Both the position numbers and the translations under genes were made by a program. The notes beneath the pieces were generated by a model that was given only the letters and a program-made list of their open reading frames with translations, was not told where the DNA came from and ran no database searches. This document shows, piece by piece, positions 1 to 51,605 of a stretch of 64,000 nt of DNA. This stretch comes from Marsupella aquatica (lineage: Eukaryota > Plantae > Marchantiophyta). How positions within the stretch are numbered: position 1 is the first letter of the stretch; every line of letters starts with the position of its first letter. The DNA lies in the NCBI GenBank assembly GCA_973895155.1, contig OZ316891.1, positions 6,109,708 through 6,173,707 on the forward strand. Reading direction: 5' to 3'.

Positions 1-1035
1 TTTCTTAGGTTTCTTACATGCCTTATTACATAAAGATAGAAGTGGAGGGGCAAACGACAGGCTCTGCTGTTCACAAGAATGATCCGACCACCGTGTTTAT
101 CTCATCATCAGTCTAAACGACGAAAGCTGATGGTGAACCTGGATCAGCTAACTAGTAGCCAAGGCTTTAAGAAGTTTGAATCGAGTTGGTGACAAACTGG
201 TAATATCAAATGAGATTCAGATTGGTTCGTTCTTATGTCATTGACTAACGTGCGTTCAATTGTGCGACTAATTACTCTTTGAAGAATGAGGCAATGAAGT
301 CGGCCATTGCAAAGACAGACCAACGCGGTCAAGTAGGAGCTTCGAGTAGGAAGCCCCAATAATAGTCTGGAGGAAAAAGACCCCCCTGGAGGTATCCATT
401 TGACGTGCTTGGACTTCATGAGTTCCACCAAACAAATCTACTGAGACCCCATGACTCGTATAGTCCTACTCTTTTGCTACCTGAGAGATCTAAGCTGTGG
501 ACTATTGAGCAGAAAGAAAGTAATTTACTACAACTCTCGAGTGTCGCTCAAATCGACCAACCGGATGGATTGAAATTGTGTCTCACGGTAATGTCGACAA
601 AGGCTGTAAAAGAAACAGTTCAACTCTAAAGACACCCGCGCCTGAACTACAAACTTCTACAGTAGCATTTTGTAGGAGCAAATAATTATGCGCTCACCTC
701 ATAAAGTGGGTAGACCATGTCTGGAAATCTACGTTCCAAATAAATAGACCATCGAAGGAGTAATCTTCAGTGATATAGACTAACTAACTGGGAGCTGTAA
801 TTGCGGGAAAAACTTAGACTTCGACACCGCAAAAAAAGGCTTCACAACTACAAGCTTGACTTCAACACAGCACAAATAGGCTTCAAATGAGTTTTCACAT
901 ACCCCTGTTTCCGAGATAAATCCGTAGGCCCCAAACTATCGAACTAGCTCATGACGTAGCTCAGACAGCAACCAGGTCGGTGGCTGACGGCGAAGACGAA
1001 ACACCCACTGAGTGACATGGAAGGTCTGGAGTTGG

Positions 1036-1540
1036 TCACCCCACGAGGTAGACTTCACAGGGCATGACGGTCTTTCGGAGTCGCGGTCCAGGAGAGATCA
1101 TCAAGCCTACCTTGGGGATGAACCTTTCATTTTCTTCAAGGTCCACAATCGTCGTCATGTAATTTGAATCCACATCGGCACCACGCTCAACACTGAAGAT
1201 AGAGGCAGGTGGTTCGAAAGAGAAGGCGAGCTTGTGCAATAGCCAAGCACTTCCTGCGGCATCCCTAAAAGTTGAAGCCAGTTTAGGACCACCAAGTTTT
1301 CCAACCCATTCGACTGTTATATTTTTCATCCTTTTACAGAGAAGAGGAACCTTTGCCTCACAGAACTCTTGAAATTGTGGATCCTCGATGTCGCCCGCGG
1401 AATTCTACTCTAGTTCGCGGAGATAGAATTTGTAAAACCTTTCCTTCCGAACGTCGGGGTTTAGAAACCTTGAAACACCAGATATGGTGTTGAAACTCTC
1501 GTTCTCAAAACCTTGAAAGAAAATGTCATTCACGGCCGAA
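1036..1540 (-). pseudogene. 3' fragment of a GIL1/IRKI-C-terminal-domain gene, paralog of 2491..4107
   Basis: ORF 1036..1329 ends WLLHKLAFSFEPPASIFSVERGADVDSNYM...KVGLMISPGPRLRKTVMPCEVYL, near-identical to the C-terminus of the 542-aa ORF. DNA similarity to about 2510-3030 continues to about 1540 and then stops; the 5' part is missing. Confidence 0.85.
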
Positions 1541-1869: not shown

Positions 1870-2113
1870 GAATTTGACGGATCCACCAGATGGGGAAGTG
1901 AGGAAAAACCGTGCTGCTAACACACAAGATTTGAAATCTCCGAAGAAGCCAATGAAAGCGAAACCAAGCATGCTGGAGGAGGCCAAAATCATCGTCGGCA
2001 TCGACTTTGGGACCACTTTTTCAGGATTTGCTTCTGCTGCGAAGGATGAGCCGGAGAAAATTTTCACATGTTATGATTGGCCTTGCCAGGCAGCAGCAGG
2101 GGTGAAACTATAA
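1870..2113 (+). pseudogene. 5' fragment of an HSPA12-type Hsp70
   Basis: Encodes IIVGIDFGTTFSGFASA..PEKIFTCYDWPCQA, matching the N-terminus of the 6183..8138 protein. Upstream DNA also aligns with about 6217-6300. The frame stops at 2113. Confidence 0.85.
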
Positions 2114-2490: not shown

Positions 2491-4107
2491 CTAGTCTGAA
2501 GTTGGAGTTTCTCCTGCGAGATACACTTCACACCGCATCACGGTTTTCCGAAGACGCAGTCCAGGAGAAATCATGAAGCCTACCTTGGGGACGAACCGTT
2601 CGTCATCTTCAAGACTTACTACAGTGTCCATGTAATTTGGATCAACATCAGCACCGTCCTCAACCCTGAAGATAGAGGCAGGTGGCTCGAAAGAGAAGGC
2701 TAGCTTGTGCAGCAGCCACACAGTTCTTGCAGCTGCTCTAAAACTTAAGACCAGAGAGTTGTCACCGATTTCTTGACGACACCCGACTCCGATACTTTCC
2801 CTATCGTCTTTAAAATAACGTCCCCAGAGAGAATTACTTTTCTTGTCGTAGAACTCTTCAAATTGAGGATCATCACTGTCACCTGCGCGGCCTTTCTTTC
2901 GTTCGCGGAGATAGTATTCGTAGAACTTTTCTTGACGAAGGTTGGGGTCTAGATACCTTGACGCACCGAACAAGGTGTTGAAACTCTCATTCTCAAAGCC
3001 TTCGAAAAGTACATCAAATACGACAGATTTGATATGGTAACTTACATGATTTGGTCTCGCGAAAAAAACATCTGGGCTATGGGAATCCTTTCTGATTAAT
3101 TTCACAACCTCGACGAACTCCTTTTGGAACCTTGTAATTGCATTTTTGGTGATACACACAGCAGCATGAAGGAGGAGAGGTGTACCAGATGCATCGGAGT
3201 ATGATCCACAAAGAGCATTAAGCTGTTCGTGCCCATATTCTGCTCCTGTGTCAGATATTGACATAGTCAACCCATGCTCGTAAGAAATTTTATGCAGCTC
3301 CAAGTTCTGTAATTGATTACATCTTTCCAGCGACAGAATTTTACTCTGCTTCTGCTTGATTTCCTCGCTGAAGAGATGTTGCGATTCTTGTAAGGATTTG
3401 TTTGTAGCTTCGTTTTGTTCCTCAAGTGCCTGATTTTCAGCTAACAGATCCTGAAAGTCTTGCTTGACCACTGCATTTTCATTCTGTAATGCTACTAGAT
3501 TTTCCCAATGCGGTAAGGCGTACTCGGGTTTCAAGTTGGCCAATTGAACTTGATGTCCCATTGCTACGAAATTGAGATGTTCCTCCAATCGCCTGAGGAG
3601 CAGAGTGACTCTAGCAGGATATTTCATATCTTGACTGACTAAAATCTCCTTAGCCCATCGAAGTACCGTTTGTGGAGGAGTTAAGTCGTGAGATCCACAA
3701 CTCGAGACTGCTTGAAGAGACTCGAAGAAAGCTGTTTGTTGGCTGCATTTATCAGCTTCCAAGGCACGTGCTCGGGTCGACTGACCAGTGTTTACTTCAG
3801 AGATAGGACACTTTTGAAGAGGAGAACATCCTGTTGTTTGATCCTTCCCCTGATGACATTGAAACATACCATCTTCTGGAGGTGGTTGGGACGAATGGCC
3901 AGAGTAATGAATCTTTGGCAGATTAGTCTTTACTGTAGAAGTGCGAACCTTTCGTGGAGTAGCACCACCTTGATTTTGATTCTTGCCTTGTTGGTTGGAT
4001 GACCCTGTCGACCGGGTGTCAGGCAGTGAGGCGTACTTCTCATCGCCATCAGATCCCGGAGGGCATTTTTTAGGTCGACCTCGAGCCCGCGTCCGTAATC
4101 TAGACAT
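2491..4107 (-). CDS. coiled-coil protein with C-terminal GIL1/IRKI-like domain (intronless)
   Basis: Uninterrupted ORF (first ATG at 4107; the track starts at GTG 4119). It has a basic, disordered N-terminus (RARGRPKK), a heptad-rich middle (LQNENAVVKQDFQDLLAENQALEEQNE) and a C-terminus with FEGFENESF...AARTVWLLHKLAFSFEPPASIFRV...VGFMISPGLRLRKTVMRCEVYL, typical of plant GIL1/IRKI proteins. Confidence 0.8.
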   Translation of the reverse strand: MSRLRTRARGRPKKCPPGSDGDEKYASLPDTRSTGSSNQQGKNQNQGGATPRKVRTSTVKTNLPKIHYSGHSSQPPPEDGMFQCHQGKDQTTGCSPLQKCPISEVNTGQSTRARALEADKCSQQTAFFESLQAVSSCGSHDLTPPQTVLRWAKEILVSQDMKYPARVTLLLRRLEEHLNFVAMGHQVQLANLKPEYALPHWENLVALQNENAVVKQDFQDLLAENQALEEQNEATNKSLQESQHLFSEEIKQKQSKILSLERCNQLQNLELHKISYEHGLTMSISDTGAEYGHEQLNALCGSYSDASGTPLLLHAAVCITKNAITRFQKEFVEVVKLIRKDSHSPDVFFARPNHVSYHIKSVVFDVLFEGFENESFNTLFGASRYLDPNLRQEKFYEYYLRERKKGRAGDSDDPQFEEFYDKKSNSLWGRYFKDDRESIGVGCRQEIGDNSLVLSFRAAARTVWLLHKLAFSFEPPASIFRVEDGADVDPNYMDTVVSLEDDERFVPKVGFMISPGLRLRKTVMRCEVYLAGETPTSD

Positions 4108-6013
4108 CGTGGGTGACACGGAAGGCCTTTCCAGATCTTTTGAGATTTGACGATAGCTGAACCGTTAGCGCTTTGTGCAGCAGTTACAACATGAGAGTGT
4201 TTCTGTACAAGCAACTGCATAATCGAGAACACATGAGTCTATCTCAGAAACCACCAGATCTATCGATAGACTACTTCGACATGAGACGAGCATGTTTTTC
4301 AACACCTACATCGATCTATCGCCGCATCTATCTAGTTAAGTGTACTCCTGGAGTTCCACTCTATTCAGAATCTTCTATTGGTAACATATAATTTTCTGAT
4401 CCAAGAGAAAAGACCCAACTGCCATTGAGAGAAAATTCGAAGCATTTGGGAGATTCACAATCAATTTTAGGAAACCTGAAGGTCGAGATGGTTAACACGT
4501 ACCTTTTTGCTGACCCTTAAAGACTCGGGAGAGAACATACTAGCATCCCTTCCCGGATCATTGCTCAACTGCGAATCCTTCGTCGAGGCACAGCCTGGAC
4601 AGCTCTGGATAAGGGGGACACGATGTAACCGACTCCATCAGAGATGTCCCGTTGGGCATCGACTATGTAATGCGCATTAAGTCCATGTAAGGTACACTGC
4701 TCAAATCCTCCCAGGGATGCTGGTGAAGATGGACAACGCTTTGCGCAGGAATGAAGCTCATACAAATTGGGGAGTACTCCAGAATAACACGACCCAGTTC
4801 TAGGTGTTTAGTTTGCACTGTCTTACGTATGGTTGTATTTTCGGGACTTTCAGTTTCAGAAATGTTATGCACTATGCTTCACTACAGTAGTTCAGTTCCC
4901 TTCCAAATTGCGACACGACCTCGGGTCTAAATTGTAAGGTACGGTATCTCTTCAGCTATATTTGAAAGAGTGAAGCTAGGATTTAATTCAAATCTCCGCA
5001 ATAAGGAGCTTCTTCGTTGCGATTTCCCCCCTGACAGCGAATTATAAGATATGCCAGAATCCATCCCTGGCAAATCATGACAATGGCACGGTCCATAATT
5101 TCTATTCTGTTCCGTCGTCACTTCGTTTACCTGAATTATTAGGTCGTTAAGACCACCATTGTTTCATCCATGATCAAGGTAGACGGGCGACACGAGGTGT
5201 GGCTACTTGTCTTTGGACGGACAACGAGTGTACTTAGTTCCTGGGAGATTCCTGTACTTCCAACTGCCAGCAGACCTGTGAGAGCACTGATAGCCACATC
5301 AATAGCTTATCTGATTTTCTGGACAGCCGACGCAAAGAATGATTGTAAAGACTGGAGATTGGAGAATAACATCATGATTGTACCACGGTCGGTACTGTAA
5401 GTACGGTAGGCAAAGGATGATTCAACGCTGGAGGTGGGATAACAACGTCATGTCCGAGTGGGCGTGCCTGAGTGCTTTTGCTCTCGCTGAATAATAAAAA
5501 GTACCTTGGCAACGAAAAGTGAATGAAGGTACTGTACGTAAGGTGGACGAAGGGAGATCGAATGAGAGCAACAACATCTCGCCAGCATGCCGCAATTCCA
5601 ATGTCGTACTCAACCTTCACCTCCACCTCAACTCTGAGTCTCTGAGGCTGAACCACGTACTAGTGCGCCTAGCCCAGAGAGAACACCTAATCCTCGCCAT
5701 CCCCGAGAGTTTCATACTATGACCACAAAGGGGAGGTGGATCCAGCGGAGATTTTATAGTTCAGGACAACATTTTCGCCCTTGCTGTTGATCTGCGAGAC
5801 TGTAGGAAGGTAAGGTCACGGCCAAGATTCCGAGTCAGAGTAGTGAGCCAAACCTTCAGCTGACGTTTATTTCTACTCCGACCTAAGGATCCTGACAAAC
5901 AAGAGCAACTGTCATTCGCAAACAAGTTGAGCGGCATGTTGATGATCCGCGTATGACGTATTTGCACTTCCACACTTGGTAACATATACTCAGACCTCGC
6001 AAGTCTCTGAATT

Positions 6014-6180
6014 AGAGATTTGACATATTATTGTTGCGAATTGTGGCTATAGGTGGCCTTGGAGAAATACTGGCACCAGCAGTCGAAAGATTGACAAATC
6101 TCTCCAATCGATTGTGGCTATAGGTGGCCTTGGAGACATTGACATCAGCAGTAAGATTAAGATTGACAAATCTCTTCAAT
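6014..6180 (+). repeat. about 70-bp tandem repeat (2+ units) immediately upstream of the Hsp70 start
   Basis: ATTGTGGCTATAGGTGGCCTTGGAGA...AGATTGACAAATCTCT occurs at about 6040 and about 6111. Confidence 0.8.
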
Positions 6181-6182
6181 TG

Positions 6183-8138
6183 ATGATGGCGACCTGCAAG
6201 CAAGGAAAGCCTAAGTTGGCGGATCCACTGTCGGACGACTGTTCATTTGAAAGCGTAGTGAGGGAAAAACGTGCTTCAAACACAGTACTTTTGATGTCTG
6301 CAAACAAGCGAAAACTGAAGGCGAACCAAATCAAGCTGGAGGATGCCGCGGTCGTAGTTGGCATCGACTTCGGTACCACCTATTCAGGGTTCGCTTATGC
6401 TAGAAAGGCAGACCCGGAGAAAATTTTCACGTTTTACGACTGGCCCGGCCAAGCACCAGCGGGAGCGAAGCCATATTGTAAGACACAAACTAGTCTTTGG
6501 TATTGGCGATCAGATTGCTTCAAGGATTTCGACCTCAGAGATTGGGGATGGCCTGCACATGTGAACCACAGGAAGGCCTTGCAAGCGAAAAGCACGTACA
6601 TGAAAGGCACAGAAAGCTACTCCGTCCTTGCGAGGCGACCTGTCCCTCTAACGGATTGTGGTCACTTCTTGACAAAATTTAAGCTGCAGCTCGCCGCCGT
6701 TGGATCAAGTTCTGGTTCGCAATTGAAGGGAGAAAAGCTACCAGAAGGGCTTTCAGCTGAACGGATGGTGACTGATTATTTGAAGGGGCTGTCTGTTTTC
6801 ATCATGGCCGAGTTGGAGAAGTTTGACTGCTCCATCCTGAAAAAGGACGTCCAATGGTGCTTGACTGTCCCTACAATTTGGACAGATACATCGAAGCAGG
6901 CCATGGTCAAATGCGCTCAAATGGCTGGCCTTATACATGGGCTTCATTGTCGAGATGAGAGTGCCAGCCTGCACCCGATTGTGATTGTCTTGGAGCCGGA
7001 AGCTGCTAGCGTGTACTGTCTACAGAAGTTGAAAAATACAGTTCATGATCTCAAAATGGGAAGCAAGTTCCTCATTGTGGATGCAGGAGGAGGTACGGTA
7101 GATTTGGTAGTGCATGAGAAACTCGACAACTCTGGTCTGAGAGTGAAGGAAGTGACCTGCAGTACAGGAGATCTATGCGGCGGTACTTTTGTTGACCAAG
7201 CATTCATGAAGTATCTTGGTCGAAAAATAGGTTGTTTCGATCGATTCTCTGCAGAATATCCCGCCACTGTGCTCACAATCCATGGCTATTGGGAGAGCTT
7301 CAAATGTGGTTTCGATGGCCAGCAAGAGTTCGATCTAGAACTTCCTGCAAAGCTCGCTGATGCTTGGGAGACCCACGATAGGGGATGTGGGTTCTGGACT
7401 GCAGACAGACAGTACGACGCATTTGTGATTAAGACTGCAGAGATCAGGGGTATTTTTGATGGCGAGGTGAGGAAGATATTCAATCTAATCGGAGATCAGC
7501 TGGCGCAAGTTCCAGAGATAGAGGCTGTCATGGTCGTGGGTGGTTTCTCAAATTCACCCTATCTCATGAAGAGAATCCGTCAGTTTTGTTCCCACAAGGT
7601 GAAACATATCTTAAGTCCTCCAGACCCCGGCAGCGCTGTATGTCAAGGAGCAGTTGCGTTTGGAGTTCTGGGCGCTGACATCATGATGTCCAGAAAGTCT
7701 AGAAAAACTTACGGGATACGTATGTACCGCACATTCCAGAAAGGTGATCGCCGCGGTTCTTTTGAATTAGATGACAATGGCGAGGCCCTTTGTAAAGATT
7801 CGTTTTGTGTTTTCACTCGTATAGGGGATGATGTTCCTGTCGACCATTGTGTGCCCCATCAATTCGTGCCGGTGAACAAAGGTGAAGCAAGTATTAAGTT
7901 CACCATGTATTCAACGAACGATCCTGAACCCGAGTTCATCACAGATAAGGGGGTCGTGAAGGTGGGTTCCTGGACTTACAGTCTTCCTCCCAAGGCCAGG
8001 AGGATGAAAGAGAAGCCCCAAGTAGAGGTCACGATGTATTTTGGGCGAACGCACATCGAGGTGTCAGCACAACCCCTGAACTTCCATGGTGGTAAAAAGT
8101 CCATGTTTTCTGTATTGTTTGAAAGGGATCCTCTTTAA
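6183..8138 (+). CDS. atypical Hsp70 (HSPA12-like actin-fold ATPase), intronless
   Basis: Motifs: VVGIDFGTTYSGFAY (phosphate 1), WCLTVPTIW, LEPEAAS, FLIVDAGGGTVDL (phosphate 2), CGGTFVD, VVGGFSNSPYL (adenosine), SRKTYG. It has no helical lid and no EEVD tail. First ATG at 6183; the track ORF starts at GTG 6114. Confidence 0.92.
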   Translation: MMATCKQGKPKLADPLSDDCSFESVVREKRASNTVLLMSANKRKLKANQIKLEDAAVVVGIDFGTTYSGFAYARKADPEKIFTFYDWPGQAPAGAKPYCKTQTSLWYWRSDCFKDFDLRDWGWPAHVNHRKALQAKSTYMKGTESYSVLARRPVPLTDCGHFLTKFKLQLAAVGSSSGSQLKGEKLPEGLSAERMVTDYLKGLSVFIMAELEKFDCSILKKDVQWCLTVPTIWTDTSKQAMVKCAQMAGLIHGLHCRDESASLHPIVIVLEPEAASVYCLQKLKNTVHDLKMGSKFLIVDAGGGTVDLVVHEKLDNSGLRVKEVTCSTGDLCGGTFVDQAFMKYLGRKIGCFDRFSAEYPATVLTIHGYWESFKCGFDGQQEFDLELPAKLADAWETHDRGCGFWTADRQYDAFVIKTAEIRGIFDGEVRKIFNLIGDQLAQVPEIEAVMVVGGFSNSPYLMKRIRQFCSHKVKHILSPPDPGSAVCQGAVAFGVLGADIMMSRKSRKTYGIRMYRTFQKGDRRGSFELDDNGEALCKDSFCVFTRIGDDVPVDHCVPHQFVPVNKGEASIKFTMYSTNDPEPEFITDKGVVKVGSWTYSLPPKARRMKEKPQVEVTMYFGRTHIEVSAQPLNFHGGKKSMFSVLFERDPL

Positions 8139-9834: not shown

Positions 9835-12034
9835 CTAACTCTGCTGTCCTCCCACAAAACGCTTCCAATACCAATGCTTTGCCCAAACTAACTCCATTTC
9901 CTCAATGGGTACATTCTTGGTTTCGGGAAGGAACAATGTAACAAAAATGGTCATGACAAGCACCCAGCCTCCAAAGAATAGGAAGATGCCCCATTGGAAG
10001 CTACACAGCATTGAAAGGAAGGCTTGCCCTACAATGAATGAGAAAAGGAAGTTAATCGACACGGTCACACTCTGAGCTGCAGATCGGATTTCCAGAGGGA
10101 ACACTTCGCTGGGAACCAACCATCCCAAAGGGCCCCATGACCAAGCAAAAGCCGCCACGTACATACAGATGAGAGTTACCACCACCAAGGCAAAACCCTT
10201 GGAGAGCTGAGCATCAATTTCAATGGGAAGGTGGTACTTAAGAATGAGCCCAACGGCAATCTGATGAAAAGACAAAGACGAGAACAGAGTCAGAAGGGGA
10301 GGAAAGTGCACTCATCCCTTACCTTGAATTAATGGCATTCAAGACAAATATGATAGAGCTTGAATGATTCAGGACATACAGAGATCTAGCTAGGGCGATG
10401 GGAGCGAAGTCAGACGAGAGCTGAACTTCATCATCTTGATTTGAAGACAAGAACAAATATCAAGAGCCAAAGATCAGGGACGAATCGGAAGATACACGAA
10501 GAACCAGCTCCCGGAAGGCTTGATTGAGTAGGATTACCTGGCAGATAAACATCTGGGCTCCTCCTTCCCAGAATAGAACTTTTCGGCCCAATCTATCCAC
10601 GGTAGCGATAGAAACAAAAGTGGACAGAAGGTTCACGGCTCCAAAGATGACAGATGAGTACAACGACGCATCGTTTCCAAACCCGACGGTCTTGAAGAGC
10701 ACCGGCGCATAGAACATGATCGCATTGATACCAGTGACCTGCTGGAAGAAGGGTATCAGAATGGCCACGCAGAGCTGAGGCCGGTACTTCCTGCTGAGGA
10801 GGTTTCGGAAGGGGTCTTTGATGGCATGGGCTTGATTACTAGCGACCACGATGTCCTCATACTCTTCGTCAACGTCAGACGTGCCACGGATTCTCCTGAG
10901 TGTTGCCTTCCCTTTGTCATGTTGGCTGCGCTCGATCAAACTATTAGGCGTCTCAGGAACAAAAAAACTTCCCAAGGTGAGGATGGCTGCTGGAACGACG
11001 GCAAGTCCGAGCGACAGCCGCCAGCCCCAGTGCTGTACATCTGGCTTTCCTGTTCCGTAATTGATCAAGTTAGCTGAGAGGATACCGATCGTTGTTGCCA
11101 ATTGGAAACAAATGTTCAAGGCTCCTCTGAGATGTGCCGGAGCCATCTCAGACAAGTAAAGAGGCACAGCCTGCAGTCATATATAGCGCAACGACGAGTT
11201 AGGGAATTTCCAGATTGAGCAATTTTAAACGGTTCTCGAAACAGTCAATTATATCGTGCTAATGTCTCAACGAGATGTACTTTTGCAGCAGGTAATATAA
11301 TTGAAGCAGCTATGATAACAGAATTTGAAGTGAACTCTGATCGAGCGGACCTGACCTGATTGGCAAAACCCACACCAATACCCAGGAAGATGCGGCCAAC
11401 AATGAGCATCGCCAAGTTCTGAGCAGCGGCATTCAGGACGCCTCCGGTCAAGAAGGAGGCGCCACCAATGAGCATGGATGGGCGCCGGCCTAAATGCTGT
11501 GTTGTCCAGGCAGCGAAAAAACTGGCAGTCAACCCCGCGACATACAGGGATGACGTGAACAGCTGAAGAACTTGGTCATTAAAGCGACAGTAGGAGTTCA
11601 CATCGTGCTTCCTGGCATAAACGTTCGGGAAAAACTTCAGAAGGAACTGGTCCATAGAAGTGACTCCTCCTGTTCATAGACCACCGACAACATTTGTCAA
11701 ACCATTCATCAAACCGCATCTGAAAGACCGCATCATCATATATCTCCAAAGTTAGGTTACAAGTTGAGCAAGAGGAAGACCACATGATATCTGGCAACGT
11801 CACATTGCAGTGAACTCAAAAGTACACTGCAAGCCCGATCCATAAAACTTGCAATTTAAGTATTGACAGGAAAGTGTATAGTCGAGATAGAAAGTACCAA
11901 CCTGAGATACCGATATCATATCCGAAAATAAGACCACCACTGGCTGCTACGATCGAGACGAGCACCACGTAAACGGTAACCTTCTGTTGATACGTCTTCT
12001 GTAACGCCGATGTGACAATGCCCCCGCCCGCCAT
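9835..12034 (-). CDS. STP: STP-family hexose/H+ symporter (MFS sugar porter), 4 exons: 12034-11902, 11669-11356, 11170-10538, 10260-9835
   Basis: Spliced frame reads MAGGG...GYDIGISG|GVTSMDQFL...GVGFANQ|[11 protein letters not shown]...PETPNSL...[14 protein letters not shown]...MFICQ|IAVG...[13 protein letters not shown]...[15 protein letters not shown] junctions were checked by eye. Confidence 0.95.
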
Positions 12035-13753: not shown

Positions 13754-16700
13754 TTATGGATCCTCTATGAACTTGCTTGGCCATAATACCAAAGAACCTG
13801 CAGCATCTCCAAGTGTCTTTTGAGGAGGATCATCATTTGTGTTTGGAATGGGAAGGACAGCTTTAGGTTTCACTAGTAATGTGACTAACACTACTGAATA
13901 ACCTGGGGGAATCCTCTTGCCATGGAACGTTGTGGAACCAACCTGCACTCTGGCAAATCCTACTCGTGTTCCACTCTCATCAACAGCTAACAAGCCACTT
14001 TGTCCCTCAGCATTAGGTGCTTTCCCCACTTCCACCTTAGATCTTTCTGCCAGCACTGTTCTTGGAGGTTTGTATGAAACCTTTGACGTGGCTCTGCTCC
14101 CACCAGCAGACTTGCTTCGTGTGCGCATGCTTCCTCTCTTCACAGTAGTGAAGCTAGGCTCAGTAGGTTCCTCTGTTAGGACTGTCACAGTAGCAGGTTC
14201 ATCACCTGGGAGTGTCATACCAACTAACTCTTTGGTTGGATTTATCTCAACAAGAGGCACACCTGTCATTGAGAATGATACATTCTGCAAATCATTTATC
14301 TCTGCAATGGAGTCAAGATCTACATAGCATGAATCTGGCTCAATGGTATCATTGTCATGCTTGCTGATATCCTCATTTGCCCCAACATTGATATCATCCA
14401 CTCCCTTGCCAATGTCATCCTCATCCAAACATGGTTGACTGCCCTCTGTCAAACAAGTTGCTTGTACAGACTGCAACTTTGTTGCCTCTAAATTACAGCG
14501 AATATTTGCCAGGTTCTCATACTTCTTCTCTGTAGCACCTGTCTTATTCTCTATGGACACAACAACCACAATATATGTTACTGAAAATAACACATTCAAC
14601 AAACAATGTCAATTCAAACTATACATTTAATAATCATATCCCACACAGTTGTAAAGGCCTTACCTTCAAGCCTACATGTCGTTGGCATGCCAGAAGAGTG
14701 CATCGACTTTGGCACCTCAAGTGGTGATGGTGGAACTCCTGCAGAATTGGAATCAATTTTATCTCTCACCGACACAACAGCTTCCATTAATGTCTTGAAG
14801 TTCACATGGAACAAGTCAGTCAATGAATTCAAACGTTCATTGATCTCTGGAAGACATGTTTCGACAGCCTTCAAACGACCACTTATCTCTGTAAGTGAAG
14901 ATCCACCTCCCTACATGACACAGGGGTATAGGTTCAATCACTCCATATGAAATGTTGGGCAATATATGCACAATCAATGTTATATACAGTGTACACCTGA
15001 AATTCAACGCAGGTCATTCAATTACCAATCAGAACTCATATAACTTACATGCTTGGAGGATTCAGATGCACCCTCTTGAGCCCGGGTGGTCACAATTTCA
15101 GCCCTCAACTCTTCTTTTGAAGGGCTTTGCCCCAATTGGGCTTTCTGCACATGCATGGCAAACACAAGTTATCGATCAATATTCAAGGAACGTACACTAA
15201 AAAACAAAGTTTACATGTATGGGTTTACACTAAAAAATAGTACATAGTGTAGCATAAATTACATAGCTAGGCCATTCATTCTTACCAAACGTTTAGCTGT
15301 CGGTGCAGTGCCGGTCCTTCCTGTCAGATTAGGGTTCTGAACACTCAACCTGGCCTCGGTCATCTGTGAACTCTTCTTTTTTGAAGCATCTGTTACAAAA
15401 TAAGCTACTAACCTTGCCCACACTTTATCATCACAACTGGCTGGTGGAGGCATATCTGGCTTCTCCCCACCTTCCTTCCAAGCCTTATGCATTCTCCACC
15501 TCTCTTGCTTGATAATTTTACCTGCTGTACTCTCTAGGCAACCTATGTCCACGCCATCATCACTGCCCACATAATTCCATTTGGCAGCAACATTTTCACA
15601 TACAGTCTTCCAATCTTTTGGATGCTGTTTTTTAAAATTAATAACACTCACATCTAACCAACGCAATACTTCAGCTTTCAAATCAGCATGCCATCGGTTC
15701 TTGCGAGGACACTCAGCATCCACCCATTGTCTCTCATTCAACTTTACATTCCCTTTCTTTGTCACCTCCCCTCGTGCACTACTCTCGGTAGTACTGGGCG
15801 TTGTATTGGCCACCCCTTCATTCACCCTACCTGGGGTTCTGAAGCCACCTGGGAAAATACAATGCCATTCATGCTTGAGAACTACATATAGCAGAATGGA
15901 TGACGGCAACATTCAATGCTTCACTTCAAGAAAAATTCTTCAAACATACATACCTGTAGCTCTGCCTGTAGATGCCTGTGCAGGGACTGCACTCTGAAAT
16001 TGTTGCGACCCTGGACCACCTGTCCAGCCTAGTACAGGGGCCGGATGATGTCACTTTCTAGGTATGTGTGTGCAAACATATGTACTGAAAACTAAGTACA
16101 AACTGTAGGAAAACAACTGAACATTCACCGACATACCTGTCCCCCTTCCGTGCTGCATCTGCATAGGGGCATTAGTGAATACTTGAGTCGATGGTTCGAC
16201 TGTCCAACCTGCACACATACATTTTCTATCATTATACATGTGCAGAGTCCCCCCCACGAGAATGGACTCCACATATAATGAGTTCTTCCATTGCTGACAA
16301 GATCAGACATTACCTGCTCCTCTTCCAGAGTTTGTAGGTACTGAATTTTGATATCCCTGCCAATTACCTTCACCACCTTCCCAACCTTGTTCATTCCACA
16401 ACCCACCACCATCCTCCCAACCTGGTTCAACCCATGTCTGTCCTTGTGGACATTGGAACTGATCATTACTAGCATTTGCCCAATCAGGTTGGGCAGAATC
16501 TGCATGCAATGGCAGGTGGACAGAATTTCATGTTGTCTGAATCCAATACATCCCAAACAATGTCAAAAATTGATATGCAGTCTGAAATTCAGGAGTGCCA
16601 TGCCTTCACAAAGAACTGGCATATAGATATATACTCACATCCCCATGGTTGAGGTGGACGTCCATACCCACGAGATTGTGGGTTTGGACCTGCTCTGCCT

Positions 16701-17470
16701 CTACCACGGGCATAACCTAGAGCTTGCCCCCTGCCATAGTATTGGGCACCAGCCTGGGATCTACCACTACTACCACCTCGCCAACCTTGATCAGAGGTCA
16801 GCCCCCCTGCTGGTATGGTGCATGCACAGGCTTCGAAGGCAAAACAGAACTGGCAGGACGCTGCATCACATCACCAACTACAATGTCAGGAACTAAGCAA
16901 GGTACATATGTGTAGTACTGAACATATGAAACCTCTAAACAAGAGTTTTTAACTCAAAACCTTGTTGGGAAAACTACTTACATGTTTCTTTTGGGGCTGC
17001 TCTGCAATGTATTCATCTTCATAACCCCCATCCTCATCCATTTCCTTTGGAAAATACTCATCATCTGCATCTTCTTGTCTAGTGTCTGCACCCACCTGTG
17101 CAGCATCAATGTCATCTCCACATTCTGCCATTGTAGGTACGACCTTCTTGCTCAACCTGTCACTCCGACGCACAGGCCCAGAGATAGTGCTGGTCACCCT
17201 TCTTGCGTACTCCTTTTGTTTCTTTGAAAATGCTGTGGCTCTGCGACATTCCAATATGAGAATACAGTCACAATTTCAGTGCCACATTGAACTATTCATG
17301 TCACACAAACTCAGCGGAGGGGTGTAGTTGAGAATCGTTCCCTTACAATTCAGCCACATCCTTTTCCAGATCCAGTTCTGCGATTTTGGCTTTCACGTAT
17401 GCTCGTTGTTCCATAGCTTTCCTTTCATACTCACACATCTCTGTGTCACTCTGTTCCATCCTACTGGACC
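13754..17470 (-). mobile_element. CACTA/EnSpm ORF2 (TnpA-like) multi-exon gene
   Basis: Series of minus-strand exon-like ORFs (17343-17460, 16949-17254, 15259-15850, 14614-14874, 13754-14550) downstream of TnpD. The 15.3-15.8 kb part (VWARLVAYF..SKKKSSQMTEAR..NPNLTGRTG) resembles Ptta/En/Spm ORF2 proteins. Confidence 0.6.
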
Positions 17471-17615
17471 ACAAAAACATGTCATCTATGGTCACCCCGT
17501 ATAACACAATGCAACCACAATCACCAGGCATCCATCCATACATCTGTGTTGCTTCAGAATTACTTTATTACACATCCTTCCCCTCACTAATGTCCATGCA
17601 AACAAGTCACATTAC

Positions 17616-20585
17616 TCATGGCACAGGCACACTGTTGGCATCTGCATCTCTGAATTCGCCTCCTTCAGCAAATGCATCTACCCTTGTCACAGGAATGAAG
17701 TCCCCGCTATCATGAACTACAGGCACTTGGTCTGAACGCCGACGATCAAAGGCACTATGAGAGTGTAAATGAAACTCAAGGTTTGATCCTTCCATCCGAC
17801 GTTGCCTGGCCTGTTTATGACACACTACACGCCAACCTGGGGAGTCTTCCACATCCAGGAAGAAAGCTTGCTCCACCTGACTAGGAAACACAAATGGCTC
17901 AGACCATTCGGGCAATTTCCCTCTGAAATTGGCCAGCAAGAAACCGTCGTTGTCTCTCTTCATGGTAGCCCTGTTACCAAGCCAATCCTGCCGCACCCAT
18001 GAACCTTTCATAAGAATCACAGGACTGGACACCGCCCCATAGTCCAGAGCCCATATGTCAACTAATTCTCCCACATATCCCATCTCCATCCAGGCCCTGT
18101 CATGATTGTGGCTCTGTTGCTCAAATACAGTGATGAGCCCGCAGTCATTCGTCACCCTGTAGGCACTGTCACCATCCTTCACTCGGAAGTGATTCCCATA
18201 TGCTCTCATCCGTTTGTAAGTCTTCACTTTCAGGCTAGGGGCATTAGACAGTAGGTAAACATCTGCATCCATGTCTGGGTGGGTCTCGTGATGCTCTCTA
18301 ATTGCCACTCTGATCCACTCCATGAAACCTGGAAAAGTTGTTCCTGCAGTGGGATGGGCCGCCTTCAATGACTCATACTCCCTGAACGAACAACCACACA
18401 GCATTAGCTTGGGTAAACATGAACAGGCTGAAGGAGAAAACCACACGAACACAACATTTAAGCTCATGAACTGGATTATAGCACATGTATGCACTCACTG
18501 TATCCAGGGTTCCATCACCACAGTGTTATGCAATACAAAGTCATGTGCCAAGTCTCTCATAGATATGGTCAGGTTCTTTGTGGTTGCAGCCCCTTCCAGT
18601 ACTTCACCTATCACCCCTTCCTCCTCATCAGAATTCCACACCCTGGTCTTCACATGCTCATATTGTGCTATGTATTCGGTCAGAAATCCCAGAGTCTCAT
18701 CCTTGATGTAACCTTTAGCCATGCTTGCTTCAGGTTTGTAATATGTTCTCACGTGACCTTTGAGTAGCTTCATGTACCGTTCCAAAGGGTACAACCAACG
18801 AGCACTCACAGGCCCAAATTGGTGTACCTCTTCCACAACATGGACAAGTAGGTGGGTCATGACATCAAAAAATGCGGGAGGAAAATAAATCTCCAGGTCA
18901 CACAGCACCTGAGCGACATCTTCTGTCAGTTGTGGGAAGTGTGTTTCATCCCAAACCTTCACACAAATACGACGAAACACATCACTGAGTCGCATGATCA
19001 CAGTACGAACAGGCTTCTGCAACAGGCCCCTCAGGCATAAAGGCAACACCTGTTGCATCAACATATGGTAGTCATGGCTTTTCATACTACCAAGCTTTCT
19101 AGTCATGATATGCTTCTTGAAAGCACTGCCATAGTTTGAAGGAACCTTCAAAGAACTCAACCTCTGCACAAATAGTTCCCACTCTGTGTCTGTCAGAACA
19201 TAGGGCGCTTGGTACTTCAAGAGCACATCAGCTCTGTGGGCATGTGGCCTCAACCAAAGATGGGGTTTCATTCCCCTCTGTTCAAGATCCAATCTCACTG
19301 AACCAGTGTCTTTCTCTCCACACAAGAATCTGAGTAGACTCTCACAAATATTCTTTTCAATGTGCATAACATCAATGTTATGTTTGCTTGGCTCAAACTC
19401 CTGCATCGTTGCAATGCAAAAGCGTCAGGAAATGCCTCAAGTTTAGTCTCTCTCTTCGAAATGAATGCACATGCTCTGAACCAAAACATGTATCCCAATT
19501 AGCATCAACTCCAAGAGGCTTACCCTCCAGTACTTGAGCTCCAAGTCCAATATGCTCAGTCTTTTTACACCATATCGCTTTATTGGATCACTCACTCCAT
19601 CTTCCCTGCCCCCTCGTTTGATATAGTCATCCCTCAGTGCTCCCCACTGCCTGATCTCCTCTTTGGTCACTCGTGCCGGGGGTCCACGTTGCTCAATCTC
19701 ATTGCCAAAGTGTGCAATCAGTGCCTGTCTTTCTCTGTAAGGGTGATCTGCCTTCAGAAAATGACGATGGCCCATGTATATCACTTTCTGCAGGGCTCTG
19801 GAGTACTCACTGGTGACATTGCGCCCACAGATAGTACAAGCACAATATCCTTTTGTTGTTTGGCCTGATATCATCCCATGGGCTGGGTAGTCAGCTATAG
19901 TCAGAATGACAATGGCTCTAAGGATGAATGGGTTTAACCTCCCAAGCCTCTGTAGGACATCATATGTGAGAACTCCTTCCTCCCAAAGCTTTCTCAATTC
20001 CTCCACTAGGGGAGCCAGAAACACATCTATGTTGGCAGATACAGCACTGTCTGGCCCTGGTATCAGTAGGACCATCAGAACAAAAAATCGCTTTGTAGTC
20101 ATCCAAGGAGGAAGGTTATAATTCAAAATAGTTACAGGCCAGCACGAAAATTTGTTGTTCTTGTCTCCAAATGGGTTTACCCCATCCAATGACAGCCCAA
20201 GTCTGACATTCCTTGGCTCAGCAGCAAATTCGGGATACATCTCATCTATGAGTTTCCATTGCCTTGAATCTGCAGCATGTCGTTGTAGCCCATCATCACT
20301 TTTCTTGTCAGTTGCCCAAGTCATCATCTCCGAGATGGCACGGCTTCTGAACATCCGCTGAAGTCTGGGAATGAGTGGAAAATGACGAAGTACCTTGGCG
20401 GGAACCATAGACTTTCCTGAGTTCCGATACTTGTGCTTCCCACACTTAGGGCATGTCAACGATTCTTTATACTCCTTTCTGAAAAGAACATGCCCATCAG
20501 GATAGGCATGGATCGAATCATAGTTCAATCCAAGATTAGATATGCATCTTTTTGCCTCGTACATGTTCTTGGGCAAAATATTACC
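17616..20585 (-). mobile_element. CACTA/EnSpm transposase (TnpD; Transposase_21 + DUF4218 + DUF4216), 5'-truncated, 3 exons
   Basis: Motifs: VLRHFPLIPRLQRMF, FAAEPRNVRLGLSLDGVNPF, YNLPPW, IDVFLAPLVEELRKLW; DVMHIEKNICES, MKSHDYH, FFDVMTHLLVH, WLYPLERYMKLLK; EPFVFPSQVEQAFF. Confidence 0.93.
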
Positions 20586-20778
20586 ATCATTGTACCTTTT
20601 TCTCGTCCGGGACGATGAGGAGGTTACCACCGCCTGCGCCTGCGGGGAACAATTTTCAAATCTGAAATGTCAGGATACAACTCAAAACATGGTGAGTAAC
20701 TAAAGCTAAGAGTGAACAGACAAGCATCTCTTAGGTACCAGGACAATCGTATGTACGTTCTGTTCAAGCAGCCCATGG

Positions 20779-23700
20779 TCAGTTTTGACTCGAGAGCTGG
20801 AATACTGACCATAAGTGTGAAGGACCATACAGTACCTCAGCTTTTCCCTTGTTCCTGCAAGGTTTTGGAATATTAGCCGAATGGCCTCTATCTTCATCGT
20901 CGGCTTCCACTGCTTCACTGCGAAGCCCGCCATCTAGGATGACCACTATCTTTGTCGTATCTGCATCGTCTTTCTCTTCCTCTTCCTCACCGTCAAGCTC
21001 AAGCTCACTTGGACTATAGTCTGAATCAGAAACTGAGACAGTCGAGTATCCATCTGAGACATCTCTCTCTTCAATTTCAGGTGATGGCGCAACTGTAGGC
21101 TGGAAAGGACCGGGGGAGCCCAGTGGACCAGCAGCATCATGGGGATCCAATATTCCTATTTGATGAGGGACAGTTGGAGTTTTCCACTTAATTGCTGCAA
21201 GACGTTCCTCCCGATAAAAGTGTTGATACTGCAGATCATATGGAAATAAGTCTGTAGACAAACGTTACATCTTGTTAATAATATACCTATAAATAATTTG
21301 ACCTCTTGAACCATTAGTCACCGGAATCTCAGCGGAAACAAAGCCAATTACATGGTAAGAATGCTCTTGGAATGTAGTAAGTGATTGTAACCATGGATCA
21401 CTAAAAAGATTAAAGAAGTGTGAATCTCGATCAAATGAATTCACATTGCAGCAATTGCTTGTAGCTATTATCGATCAGGTATGAAAAATAAAGGAATTTC
21501 TGAGCACCCGGCTGAGCACTAACTTTCATCACACAGAACAGCTTCTCTGTTCCGGCTCTCCTGCAAGTACAGTGCAAAGAAAACAATGGGTAAGAGCCAG
21601 CTATCCTGCAAATAGAAGATTGTACGTTTATGCAAAAGTTTATGATCGATCAGATCTAAAATTATGCAGTCGATTTTTCTGGTACTGAACACCTCCAACT
21701 AGCGTTACTAGGTTCTAAACCATGCACGTCTACTTCAAATTCCGAATTTCTGCCAAACTTACCTCACCCACAACGTTTGCACTATTGTCGACTTGCTCCC
21801 GTCGAAAGAACTGTGTTATGACAACAAAATATTGAGTTCCATATACTTGCAGGACAACGATTCTCAAAATATTGAATTGTAGTAATTTAGGCATCTTCAA
21901 TAACTTCCAGAAATGTCACCTTAACTCTCGTGAAATAATTCGATGCACCGGTGTAGTAATAGTTGGCATTGAAGCAATTACCACAAAACACTCAGTGATT
22001 TCAGAAAGTATTTTCGATGACAACTTTAACATACTTGCTCATATTTTGCGTTTTGGAGTGAGCTCCCGTCTCCAGTTGCAAAAAGATAGATGCGACCGAC
22101 ATTGTCGGACACTACCAAAGATGATCCATCACTGTCGCCAATAGCACGGAACTCAGTAACTCTGCAAGCTGGTTAGATGTATCTTTGAAAATCCAAACCA
22201 TTTGACATTAACAGCAATCATTAGCAGGACTTGTTATGCATTCGTCGAGAAAGTCAAATTCAGGTGGACCACACTTATATCAGCAATACTAAGCAACCTT
22301 GTAGTAACCAAAAGTCCTCTTACTAGGTGTGTCATAAGGAGCTGTAAGCATATTTGAGACTTACGGGGAGAAATTGCCATCAACAAGACTGTCTTCTCCT
22401 GTTTTATAAGTACGAATTGGATGACCACACCATATCTGCCAGAGTCACAATAATCAATGACTGTTGAATTACGAGGTCAACATTCCAAGATCGAGGCATT
22501 CAAATTTTCTTAATGTCCATGACAGCGCTCTATTGTAAGAAGGCTTTGAAGTTACCCGAAACCTGATGACTTCCAGCCCTTAACATTACAGTAATTAAGT
22601 ACATAAACTTACATCCCAGATGATAGCACGTCCGTCATATCCAGCACTCATAGCAATTCTTGGGTTGAATGGATGCACGTCCAATACATATGTCTGTATG
22701 TCAGCACGTTTGTGACAAACAAAACCAATCAGCAAACTCTCAATGTGACTATTCACATCTCACCACAGATTCTTTGAAACTGGCAGGAGCAGTAAAAAAA
22801 CAACAAGTAAACCTGTCAAGAGATGACACAAAGCTACATGACCTGTGAACTGCGTTGTAATCAGGTTTGGCAGATGATTTCTAATGCATAACTTCAGCCC
22901 AGAGCACTCTACGACAAGCTCCAAGTCATATATCCACACCATAATACCTGCTGGTCATGACCAGTCAAAGAGTGCGCTAAACTGCCGTCCAGAGCATTCC
23001 AAACGCATATTCTACAGTCTGCACAACGTGAGTGTCAGACGCATATTCCACAGGCTGCACGACATGTGTCAGAGTGTCCTACAAAATCGTTTTTAGCGAT
23101 TGGGCAGCATTTTATTACCCGTAAACGTGCAATAGCAGCAAATAGTATACAACCTCTAATGGATGAAGGTTTACAGTTAAGTGTAATTAATGTTCTGCAA
23201 ATTTTGCAGGTGTATGCGTACTATGTCAAAGTAATAGCAAACTTACCCGTTATTGCTCCAAGGAGAAAACGGCTATCCAAACTCCAGACAATTATGTTTA
23301 CGCCTCTACGCTTTCGCAGAGACCATTGCTTTCTTCCTCGAGGTCTCGGCAGTTCTGAGGGTATTGGATGCGGGTCCACCTTCAGGTGATAGGCTTTCAC
23401 CCACCGATCAGCTTCAGAATTATGTCGGCGACGGAGAGGAATCCAAATGATAGTGCTGGCGTCTCTTGAACATGTTACAATGCTGTCACGAGCAGACCAG
23501 GTATTCTTGGAACTCGCCGGATAATCCTTTTCAGGAGAGTCTGCAAGGAATGGCCGTCCGGAAGCTACACATCCACTAAACCGAACACAATGGACATGCT
23601 TGTCATGGCCCACAAGATTGTCCAATTCGTAAGTTGGCCTCTGTGTGAGAGCTGGAGCAAAGTTGCACTCCGTGGCGCTCCATACCATAGCCTTATTGTC

Positions 23701-24504
23701 TGAGCTGCCTGCCACAAAAATGGTACCATCTGCATTAAAAGCACAGCAGAGGATTCGCATTGCAGGTTGGCTGATGATGTTGGACACCTGTAGGGAGGCT
23801 TTTCTAGGTCTCCTTGTAGGTAAAGGTTGGATGTCTCTGGGAGCGGGCTGATAGACATGGGGCTTGACAGCCGAGTATCGCGCATCCCAGATTCTGCACA
23901 TACCATCCTCAGAGGACGAGAGTAGATGATGTTCACATCCCTGTCGAGGGCTGAATTCGATAGCCGTAACAGCCCCACCATGCCCACCAAGGACAGAAAA
24001 TGGAAACCCATCTGGCAGCCGCCAAACTCTGATGGAGTGATCACTGGAGGCCGATGCTACAAAATTGTTCTTGCTACTCACAGCCAAATCGGTTATAGGA
24101 GCATCATGGCCAATGCAACTACCCAGACAGAAACCAGTGCGAGTTGACCAGATGTTCACAAGGGCATCATCCGATCCAGTGATCACAAGCTGCGCACTTC
24201 TATCAAATATAGAACAGTTCACGACTTCGTGATGCCCTCGCAATTTCTTGATCATCTGGATCCTTTCAAAGATTACTGTGGGCTTTGCTATCTCATAGGT
24301 GGTCTTCTTGACAGGAGGAGGTCGATGATATCGACCAACTGCACCACCCAGTTCTCTCAGTGCCAATCGGTAAACTTGGTTTGCTTGCGCACTGGTCTCA
24401 TGGCCTCCTGGCTCGCCTTCCTTAGAACGGCCAGGACAATTCAGATCAACATCCACCCCGGCTGCCGCCGCCTCAGATTGTCCACCAGCTATACTTGAAT
24501 CCAT
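20779..24504 (-). CDS. BRWD/PHIP-like WD40 protein, N- and C-terminally truncated (no bromodomain visible); may be a pseudogene
   Basis: Exon 24504-23247 reads ELGGAVGRYHRPP..IAKPT..IKKLRGH..FDRSAQLVITGSDD..GHDAPITDLAVSS..WRLPDG..WSLDSRFLLGAIT. Small GT-AG exons follow: DCRICVWNALDGSLAHSLTGH (about 23018-22948), TYVLDVHPFNPRIAMSAGYDG (about 22694-22613), IWCGHPIRTY..DGNFSP (about 22435-22365), DGSSLVVSDNVG..AKYEQ (about 22132-22035) and FPYDLQYQ..RLAA (about 21260 onward). Confidence 0.85.
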
Positions 24505-24694
24505 GATCGAAAATTTAACCCAAACCAGTACCGATGCGCTGCTGATATCGAGGAAGGGCTGATCCTGCTGTCGTATAAGCTGAATCCCGGATGCAACCCC
24601 TATGGCTGCATACTCTACGCTGCTCGATCGTAGATAAGGTCTAGGGGTTCCGAGCACTGAAATTCACTCACAAGCCTATGTTTGCACTAAGAGC

Positions 24695-33302: not shown

Positions 33303-34176
33303 TCAAATTACTTGAACCGGATCATCTGATCGAGAAGCATTGAGAAGAATGCCGGTACCCAGGGAACTGTATTGTTCATACAGCTCAAGCATTTGGTTGC
33401 CAACTTCTTCCAACTGTCGAGGACTGACTTCGAACTCTCGCCACCAAAGTGTCTCCCCATCTGTACGTATCTTGACATTAAGAAACTTAGCCGCGAGGAA
33501 GATGGCCCCTGCAGCAATTTGATGGGGCTTAAACTGCAGGCAGAGCGACGTGCGCAGCCCGTCATTCACAAAGTTCCAGGCCACTTGTTTCAGTGCGTTG
33601 TGAGGAACCTTGAACTTTTTAATAGCTGCAACCAATGGCTTATAAGGATGAGCTATCTCAAGATCCAAACCCAGTGTGGTCAGAACTAGTCGTTCTCCCA
33701 TCAATATTAACTCCTTCTGCTCCTCGTAAACATCCTTGTTCTTGATGCGCCCCACCGCTGCAGGATCCTTTTCATGTCGAACCTCATTAAGACATATGGA
33801 CAACATCTCGGAGAGGTTTTGGTGTCTCCTCCACTTTACCAGCCAAAAACATGCAGGAAGTTGCAATGATATATCTATCATTTTTCAAATGTGAGTGTCG
33901 AAGGTAGAATCGATGAGAGAAGACAATTGCCGTGGCGATGGTCAACTGATGGACTCTCAGACGCATGCCCAGATCTTGAAGGAAAGTAGTATAGCACACT
34001 CGAAAGTACGTCTCTTTCTTCAAATCGATACCGTCAAGACGCGAAGGAGACCTTGTCTCGATTTCCTCCCTTGAAAAATACCAGTTGGAACTCGAATGGT
34101 CAGGCTCCTCGAGCCTCCCTAATGGTGTTCCACATCCTGCTAATGCCCTCTGGGGAGCTTGAAATCCACCAGACAT
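33303..34176 (-). pseudogene. CYCT1: cyclin T1-like processed copy with one frameshift at about 33787
   Basis: [70 protein letters not shown], then [56 protein letters not shown]. No introns; one extra base relative to the copy at 40 kb. Confidence 0.9.
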
Positions 34177-34534
34177 CGTTCCCGCCTTCTGCGTTCCTCG
34201 AAGAAAGAAACCTTTCTAATTTGATACCTGCGCACTAAACCGCCAGTGAGATATTCTTAATCATAAGCTCAACACAACCGAGACTTTTGTGGTGGGACTA
34301 AACCGCACGTACTCAAACGCTGTCCCGATCAACGAGCCGAGGAAACTGTCTGAAAAGCACAAAGGGCCGACAATTTATCCACGATCCCGATCGAGTTAAA
34401 CCACCGAAAACGAGGATGGTCAAAACGTAAGCCCCTTACTCTTCAGCCTCAAGCTTAAATACACATGCTCCCTCTCCAGCCACCCGCCAGAAGGCTTCTT
34501 TGCTGTGAAGGAGGTTGAGGCTGGCGCCTGAAAT

Positions 34535-34770
34535 CATACAAGAGACTGACTAGGACTCCCCTCCAAGGACAAGTGACTGACTAAGGACTCCCCTCCAAGG
34601 ACAAGTGACTCTCCCTCCGTAAGACTTCAGGCTCAAGCCTAAAACACCCATGCTTCCTCCCAAGCCACCCGCCGGAAGGCTTCCTTACTGTGAAGCAGGT
34701 CGAGCTTCAAATCATATATACAAGAGACTGAAGAAGGACTCCCCTCCAAGGACAAGTGATTCTCCCTCGG
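34535..34770. repeat. tandem/dispersed repeats in the cyclin T upstream region
   Basis: GACTGAC..GGACTCCCCTCCAAGGACAAGTGA occurs 3 times and GCCACCCGCC.GAAGGCTTC twice nearby. The same pattern is at 40770-40985. Confidence 0.8.
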
Positions 34771-35269
34771 GTAAACAAAGAGGCTGCAGCACGTCAATTA
34801 AAGCAACAACAGTCCGCAAGAACAGTCCTTTTCCACCCAGTTCTCGGCATTGACTTGAAATTCCGATCCGGGCTAAGCCACTCACGAACACCGCCACTCG
34901 CATGATCAAAGGCAGACCCGTCCAAACATGAAAGCTAGGGCAGTAATACATAAATCGGGACACCATGCATGAACGAATTAAGGGCATCCACAACCCTGAA
35001 CGCCCTCTCCTCCCGCCTGCTGGTACCAGAAATTGACCTAAACGAGCATGAACCTCCATGTCCTCTTCCTCTTACCTTTTCTCGCAGTCCTGCTCGCTGA
35101 CAAACAAAAGTTGGCCTAGAACAAAAAGGTCCAAATTAAAATTACCAGTAATCTTATCGTACGATGATAATCCCTGTTTCACGTGATGGGAATAGCCGTC
35201 CGTGCGCTGTTGTACTTGTCAGACTATTGCAAAGATGAGAAGTTCCCATCCGAGTCGGGCTTTGAGGTC

Positions 35270-35385
35270 CATTCCCTCAACTTCGAAGGCTACTCAGATG
35301 CATTCTTTGCCGGCAATACCACGAACATAAATTCAACATCCAGATATGTAGTCAAAGCTTACAAATGATGGTGTCAGCTGGAAAT
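35270..35385 (+). mobile_element. isolated Ty1/copia RNase H fragment (second copy at about 41490-41600)
   Basis: LNFEGYSDAFFAGNTTNINSTSRYVVK..GVSWK resembles NFQGYCDASFVDNSVDQKSTSGYLFKLAGGAISWK of the copia at 56121. Confidence 0.75.
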
Positions 35386-35419
35386 TAATCATTACATGCC
35401 ATAAGGCCCACCAAATTTG

Positions 35420-51546: not shown

Positions 51547-51605
51547 ACTTAGCCCTGACGACCTCAATTGACGATATTGATATTGTAGCGCCGATGAACT
51601 CATCC

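What the first reader, a model, noticed from the sequence alone, without database searches (positions are those of the whole stretch)
2491..8138. Head-to-head HSPA12-type Hsp70 + coiled-coil GIL1/IRKI-domain gene: candidate dedicated Hsp70/GrpE-like two-gene module
Seen: two intact, intronless ORFs transcribed divergently about 2.1 kb apart in otherwise decayed DNA. Known: HSPA12-type Hsp70s keep the ATPase motifs but lack the lid and EEVD, and their cofactors are unclear. GrpE nucleotide-exchange factors consist of a long coiled coil, a helical bundle and a small beta domain ending in roughly V.ev.q.GY.l..rvlRpa.V.V. Inference: the partner has a similar layout, and its last residues KVGFMISPGLRLRKTVMRCEVYL resemble that GrpE beta motif. 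The GIL1/IRKI domain may therefore be a GrpE-like fold, and this locus a co-regulated atypical Hsp70 with its own exchange factor or effector. The arrangement recalls paired immune-receptor loci and could act in stress, defence or cell death. I know of no description of such a pair in plants.
Basis: partly seen in the sequence, partly recalled or inferred. Interest (0 to 1): 0.85.

Follow-up and report, generated by a model that had tools for sequence, protein, structure and literature searches.

The report
Orphan Hsp70 with GrpE-like partner gene
In this plant (likely a liverwort), a lid-less Hsp70 gene faces away from a coiled-coil gene whose tail is predicted to resemble the bacterial Hsp70 helper GrpE; the pair was apparently duplicated as a unit and appears to recur in other liverworts, an alga and some bacteria, so the partner is likely this poorly understood Hsp70's own nucleotide-exchange factor.

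The parts
2491..4107 (-). Partner gene, 538 aa: basic low-complexity N-terminus, long helix, helical bundle and GrpE-like beta-wing (GIL1/IRKI C-terminal domain)
3256..3507 (-). Long helix or coiled-coil stalk, residues 201-284 (pLDDT mostly over 85)
2698..3180 (-). Helical bundle, residues 310-470; larger than GrpE's short helical domain and partly superposed on it
2512..2676 (-). Beta-wing, residues 478-532 (PF24994); P515 and G516 in 99% and 94% of 113 homologues; aligns to the GrpE C-terminal domain
4108..6182 (.). 2075-bp spacer between the divergent ATGs (candidate shared promoter, untested)
6183..8138 (+). HSPA12-type Hsp70, 651 aa: complete nucleotide-binding domain with conserved D62, T65, K167, E271, D300, T305, D307, all-beta substrate domain, no lid, no EEVD
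1024..1539 (-). Decayed copy of the partner's C-terminal 178 residues (59% identical, 2 stops in frame)
1898..2110 (+). Decayed 5' fragment of a second HSPA12-type gene (71 codons, 61% identical, then a stop), divergent from the decayed partner

Best explanation
A lid-less HSPA12-type Hsp70 ATPase gene lies head-to-head with a coiled-coil gene that is likely a distant GrpE relative, and the partner likely serves as this Hsp70's dedicated nucleotide-exchange factor. Shown: both frames are intact, the ATPase keeps its catalytic residues, and a second decayed copy of the pair lies beside it. Inferred from accession numbering and bacterial loci: the pair is an old unit that moves, duplicates and decays together. 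Predicted: the partner's helical bundle and beta-wing dock on the ATPase domain as GrpE docks on DnaK, open the nucleotide cleft and reset the enzyme from ADP to ATP. Its variable N-terminus and stalk would set location or client. Neither protein has a membrane segment, and both carry basic N-terminal patches, so it would work in the cytosol or nucleus. The biological job is most likely a stress or defence switch rather than bulk folding, but that step is weak (about 0.4).
Confidence: 0.55

Rival explanations
1. The pair is a two-component defence or cell-death switch. The partner binds the ATPase as an inhibitor, sensor or effector (guard or toxin-antidote style) rather than as a plain exchange factor, and the GrpE-like surface is the docking module.
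For: Patchy occurrence in bacteria (1 of 401, 3 of 301, 9 of 301 and 5 of 55 genomes). One Hsp70 is fused to a trypsin-like peptidase and a STAND NTPase, and a dynamin-like GTPase follows another pair. STAND-TPR/vWA/PP2C, patatin, nucleoside-deoxyribosyltransferase-like, E1/JAB and WD40 genes lie beside 6 of 10 fetched loci (30 of 78 ORFs scanned, no background control). Many plant paralogues, several truncated or decayed. Kaur 2020 (PMC7159879, passages) places HSP70 plus GrpE genes in bacterial conflict systems.
Against: No PADLOC match for either window protein. No immune domain is fused in the plant proteins; among 90 homologues scanned, the only families beyond PF24994, DUF641 and coiled-coil models were SMC/AAA hits in one protein. 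Calling the neighbours 'conflict-type' is my recalled knowledge. This reading is not exclusive of the best one.
Confidence: 0.25
2. The genes are linked and perhaps co-regulated but do not bind each other. The GIL1/IRKI-type protein is a scaffold like Arabidopsis IRKI1 and the GrpE likeness is a relic.
For: IRKI1 binds the IRK kinase domain, NRL2 and PAT19, and Marchantia IRKI is polar (bioRxiv 2026.08.17.745151 and 2026.08.17.745269, passages). Many partner paralogues sit alone. None of the names among the 120 listed HSPA12-like hits is a flowering plant, although these keep the domain.
Against: Operon-like pairing at 16 of 19 bacterial loci, and adjacency in an alga and two liverwort classes, is hard to explain without a direct functional tie. 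The partner resembles the one known ligand of this ATPase fold's cleft.
Confidence: 0.14
3. Chance neighbours carried along by local tandem duplication in one liverwort lineage.
For: Both families are multi-copy, and tandem duplication would copy any two neighbours.
Against: Adjacency in Klebsormidium and Riccia (chance about 0.002-0.006 each even with 30 HSPA12-like genes) and in bacteria.
Confidence: 0.04

Closest known systems
DnaK-GrpE / mtHsp70-GrpEL1 (PF00012 + PF01025; PDB 1DKG, 4ANI, 9BLS)
   Same: An Hsp70 ATPase gene beside a protein with a disordered N-terminus, helical stalk, helical domain and beta-wing (architecture as in PMC12987570 passages; model); beta-wing motif aligns.
   Different: The Hsp70 has no lid and no EEVD. 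The partner's helical domain is about 160 residues rather than a short hairpin, there is a flexible link after the stalk, and it is below the PF01025 cut-off. No J-protein gene was seen beside it in the window. It is probably not organellar. Dimer and exchange activity are untested.
Animal HSPA12A/B
   Same: Lid-less Hsp70 with intact ATPase motifs; a homologue at 39% identity is named 'heat shock 70 kDa protein 12A-like'; lineage-specific expansion as in bivalves (PMC13580251 passage).
   Different: No cofactor is described for HSPA12 in the passages read. Here a candidate lies beside the gene. No direct comparison with a human HSPA12 sequence was run.
Arabidopsis IRKI1/IRKI2 and GIL1 (PF24994, PF04859)
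   Same: Same C-terminal domain and upstream helical region.
   Different: No DUF641; falls in a liverwort clade (support 0.995) apart from the DUF641 clade (0.999). IRKI is described as a polarity scaffold of poorly understood molecular function, with no Hsp70 link.
HSP70 + GrpE modules in bacterial GAP1-N2 GTPase conflict systems (Kaur et al. 2020, PMC7159879)
   Same: Hsp70 and GrpE-type genes used together in specialised loci of multicellular bacteria.
   Different: No GAP1-N2 or FNIII-DnaJ gene was detected among the ORFs scanned here. The partner here is not a Pfam GrpE, and the system extends to eukaryotes.
MIEAP/SPATA18 domain (PF16026)
   Same: Weak leads only: one bacterial partner E 0.36; Atlas scores 0.80 and 0.82.
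   Different: Not significant; relationship not established here.

Membership tests
GrpE (PF01025) | Pfam curated cut-off | tested here: not met
   No hit for the window protein at E<=1; best A2 member E 0.11
GrpE (PF01025) | Order of parts: disordered N-terminus, long helical stalk, helical domain, C-terminal beta-wing | tested here: met
   Model of residues 200-538, pLDDT 88; N-terminus judged low-complexity from sequence only
GrpE (PF01025) | Beta-wing fold and sequence homology | tested here: inconclusive
GrpE (PF01025) | Homodimer through the stalk; 2:1 binding to the Hsp70 nucleotide-binding domain | not tested
GrpE (PF01025) | Accelerates ADP release | not testable with these tools
   Needs biochemistry
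HSPA12-type Hsp70 | Hsp70 nucleotide-binding domain with catalytic Asp, Lys, Glu, Asp, Thr | tested here: met
HSPA12-type Hsp70 | No alpha-helical lid (PMC13580251) and no EEVD | tested here: met
   Model ends in a beta-sandwich; C-terminus FERDPL
HSPA12-type Hsp70 | Groups with animal HSPA12A/B in a tree | not tested
   No animal sequence in the set; the label rests on a homologue's name and on architecture
Canonical Hsp70/DnaK | Lid and full-length PF00012 match | tested here: not met
   PF00012 covers profile positions 113-369 of 599 only; 15-17% identity to DnaK and BiP
GIL1/IRKI family | PF24994 above cut-off | tested here: met
   35.2 bits against 27
GIL1/IRKI family | DUF641 (PF04859) N-terminal domain | tested here: not met
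   Absent; also absent from a ginger 'IRK-interacting protein-like', so not universal
GIL1/IRKI family | Orthology to Arabidopsis IRKI1 or GIL1 | tested here: inconclusive
   Liverwort clade, deeper branches weak, Arabidopsis sequences not identified in the set
Paired immune-receptor (NLR-like) locus | NB-ARC, LRR or TIR-type domains | tested here: not met
   None in either protein; only the head-to-head layout is shared

The most novel reading that the evidence does not exclude
HSPA12-type ATPases and GIL1/IRKI (and perhaps MIEAP) proteins are the two halves of one undescribed, cross-kingdom DnaK-GrpE offshoot, inherited as a gene pair from bacterial conflict loci into algae, bryophytes and fungi. 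It would be a cytosolic GrpE-type exchange-factor system in eukaryotes, acting as an ATP-driven defence or cell-death switch. Flowering plants would have lost the ATPase and redeployed the partner as the polarity scaffold IRKI and as GIL1.
Probability: 0.3. Interest if true: 0.9.

Novelty: new variant of a known kind. Interest (0 to 1): 0.72.

Why it matters
A 2026 review (PMC13580251, passages) says the function of HspA12 is unknown and that eukaryotes kept no dedicated cytosolic GrpE. A 2026 preprint says IRKI1's molecular function is poorly understood. This pair offers one testable answer to all three: a named candidate cofactor for HSPA12-type ATPases, a GrpE-like fold for the GIL1/IRKI domain, and a two-gene locus that can be knocked out in Marchantiales or rebuilt in vitro.

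Full report
1. Observation. ORF A (2491-4107, minus, 538 aa) and ORF B (6183-8138, plus, 651 aa) are open and divergent, with 2075 bp between the ATGs. A carries PF24994 GIL1_IRKI_C at 479-529 (E 1.3e-8); B matches PF00012 (E 1.2e-11). The best relatives of both are from the leafy liverwort Calypogeia fissa (54% over 46% of A; 60% over 94% of B), so the source is likely a liverwort. No genome is held. The rest of the window has a sugar-transporter gene, CACTA and copia remnants and WD40, cyclin, PAH and Nudix pieces.

2. A second copy of the pair. tblastn finds a decayed copy of A's last 178 residues at 1024-1539 (minus) and of B's residues 26-96 at 1898-2107 (plus), again divergent and 358 bp apart. 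Nucleotide identity to the intact genes is 73% and 74%. dS is 0.85 and 0.75 and dN/dS is 0.32 for both (170 and 70 codons). The simplest reading is one duplication of the pair, a period under selection, then decay.

3. Linkage in other plants, read from accession numbers and shared contig lengths; coordinates and strands were not seen. All 11 Calypogeia partner-type proteins found were looked up. They form 8 loci, of which 3 lie within 7 accessions of one of the 11 HSPA12-like accessions known: 8099/8101, 8181/8186 and 4140-41/4134. The other five are 128-1639 away. The chance is about 6e-5 if the genome has 30 HSPA12-like genes and 4e-4 if 60 (the 7-accession limit was set after seeing the data). 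Klebsormidium nitens GAQ79451 and GAQ79452 are consecutive on one contig, and so are Riccia sorocarpa R1sor_027397 and 027398, though that Hsp70 model lacks the middle of its ATPase domain. Against: the partners from Riccia fluitans, Ceratodon (2 loci), Ceratopteris and Selaginella have no neighbour among the 120 HSPA12-like hits listed of 2007; 4 of the 10 proteins had no name. None of 21 metagenome GIL1/IRKI loci (27-33% identical, many short, probably flowering-plant type) holds an HSPA12-like gene. All paired liverwort Hsp70s fall in one clade (0.992; 143 sequences), and their partners in one clade (0.995; 152 of 158 sequences), apart from the clade that holds all 22 DUF641-labelled proteins (0.999). 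A six-pair congruence test was unresolved.

4. Bacteria (a lead from the scan's notes, tested here). Seven HSPA12-like loci came from GTDB genomes. All 7 have a same-strand coiled-coil gene directly downstream, ending in a P-G/A-(Y/V/I)...P-x-V-x-T tail. Twelve further loci gave 9 with a related downstream gene, 2 without and 1 too short (that profile was built from the first seven). The plant head-domain profile ranked four of the first seven partners first to fourth among 144 ORFs, at E 0.012-0.41; the other three were not listed. The system is rare: 1 of 401, 3 of 301, 9 of 301 and 5 of 55 genomes searched, seeds included. Neighbours include a trypsin-STAND fusion to the Hsp70 and a dynamin-like GTPase. 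STAND-TPR/vWA/PP2C, patatin (twice), a nucleoside-deoxyribosyltransferase-like protein, E1/JAB and WD40 lie at 6 of 10 fetched loci (30 of 78 ORFs scanned, chosen by nearness). Reading these as conflict genes is my recalled knowledge and has no background control.

5. The Hsp70. The model of residues 55-651 (pLDDT 91.6, pTM 0.89) has a full nucleotide-binding domain, a linker strand and an all-beta substrate domain, with no lid. It matches DnaK and BiP folds at E about 1e-23 and 15-17% identity. D62, T65, K167, E271, D300, T305 and D307 are present in 95-96 of 96 aligned sequences; equating them with the DnaK catalytic set is recalled. It is likely an active ATPase that cannot clamp clients under a lid.

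7. Mechanism. Shown: intact divergent genes, a decayed twin pair, conserved ATPase residues. Inferred: an old linked unit (about 0.9); GrpE-like head (about 0.8); direct binding with nucleotide exchange (about 0.55); defence or cell-death role (about 0.4). Basic N-terminal patches (RARGRPKK in A, KRKLK in B; similar in relatives) and the lack of membrane segments point to the nucleus or cytosol; no targeting predictor was run.

8. What is known. PMC13580251 (passages): HspA12 lacks the lid, its function is unknown, it is expanded in bivalves, and no dedicated cytosolic GrpE was retained. PMC7159879 (passages): HSP70 plus GrpE genes in about 14% of GAP1-N2 conflict neighbourhoods. PMC8195603 (passages): HSP70 domains in oyster immune-type proteins. 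bioRxiv 2026.08.17.745151 and 2026.08.17.745269 (passages): IRKI proteins belong to a lateral polarity cluster, also polar in Marchantia; 'GrpE' and 'HSP70' occur 0 times in their main texts; their supplements, which include IRKI phylogenies, could not be seen. The ten searches listed under Tried and rejected found no description of the pair. The scan's own notes report similar pairs in eight fungal windows and none by sequence, place or plant words for this one; they are unchecked AI notes and are not counted as support.

9. Verdict. A real and conserved two-gene module; a new variant of the Hsp70-GrpE kind, not found in print; its mechanism is predicted, not shown. Interest 0.72.

Noticed in passing
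window 9835-11655 (-): Sugar-transporter (PF00083) gene in several pieces, likely exons, 1.7 kb beyond the Hsp70.
   Followed up: no
window 15259-20669 (-): CACTA/En-Spm transposon remnants (Transposase_21, DUF4218, DUF4216, Transposase_24).
   Followed up: no
window 33760-36767 and 39987-42957: Direct 3-kb duplication at 90% identity; a cyclin C-terminal domain ORF (33303-33884) overlaps the start of the first copy.
   Followed up: no
window 23221-24663, 47969-48448, 51028-51657, 52173-54666: WD40 ORF, Nudix ORF, PAH-repeat ORF and a copia retroelement remnant.
   Followed up: no
window 4066-4107 (-): The partner starts with RARGRPKK; a Calypogeia relative has KRKRGRPRKK. This resembles an AT-hook or nuclear signal (label recalled).
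   Followed up: no
window 6040-6190: An imperfect direct repeat of about 80 bp just upstream of the Hsp70 ATG.
   Followed up: no
L024:2278-7794: Dactylosporangium protein of 1838 aa fusing a trypsin-like peptidase, a STAND NTPase and an HSPA12-like Hsp70, followed by the GrpE-like partner.
   Followed up: partly
L026:2563-4611, L027:1881-3878, L121:3779-5596, L122:8329-10134: In Beggiatoa-group loci an ORF of 600-680 aa, mostly without a Pfam family, lies upstream of the Hsp70: a possible third component.
   Followed up: no
P0190 (981 aa): A GIL1/IRKI-C domain protein with an N-terminal SMC/AAA ATPase match, possibly a fusion or a merged gene model.
   Followed up: no
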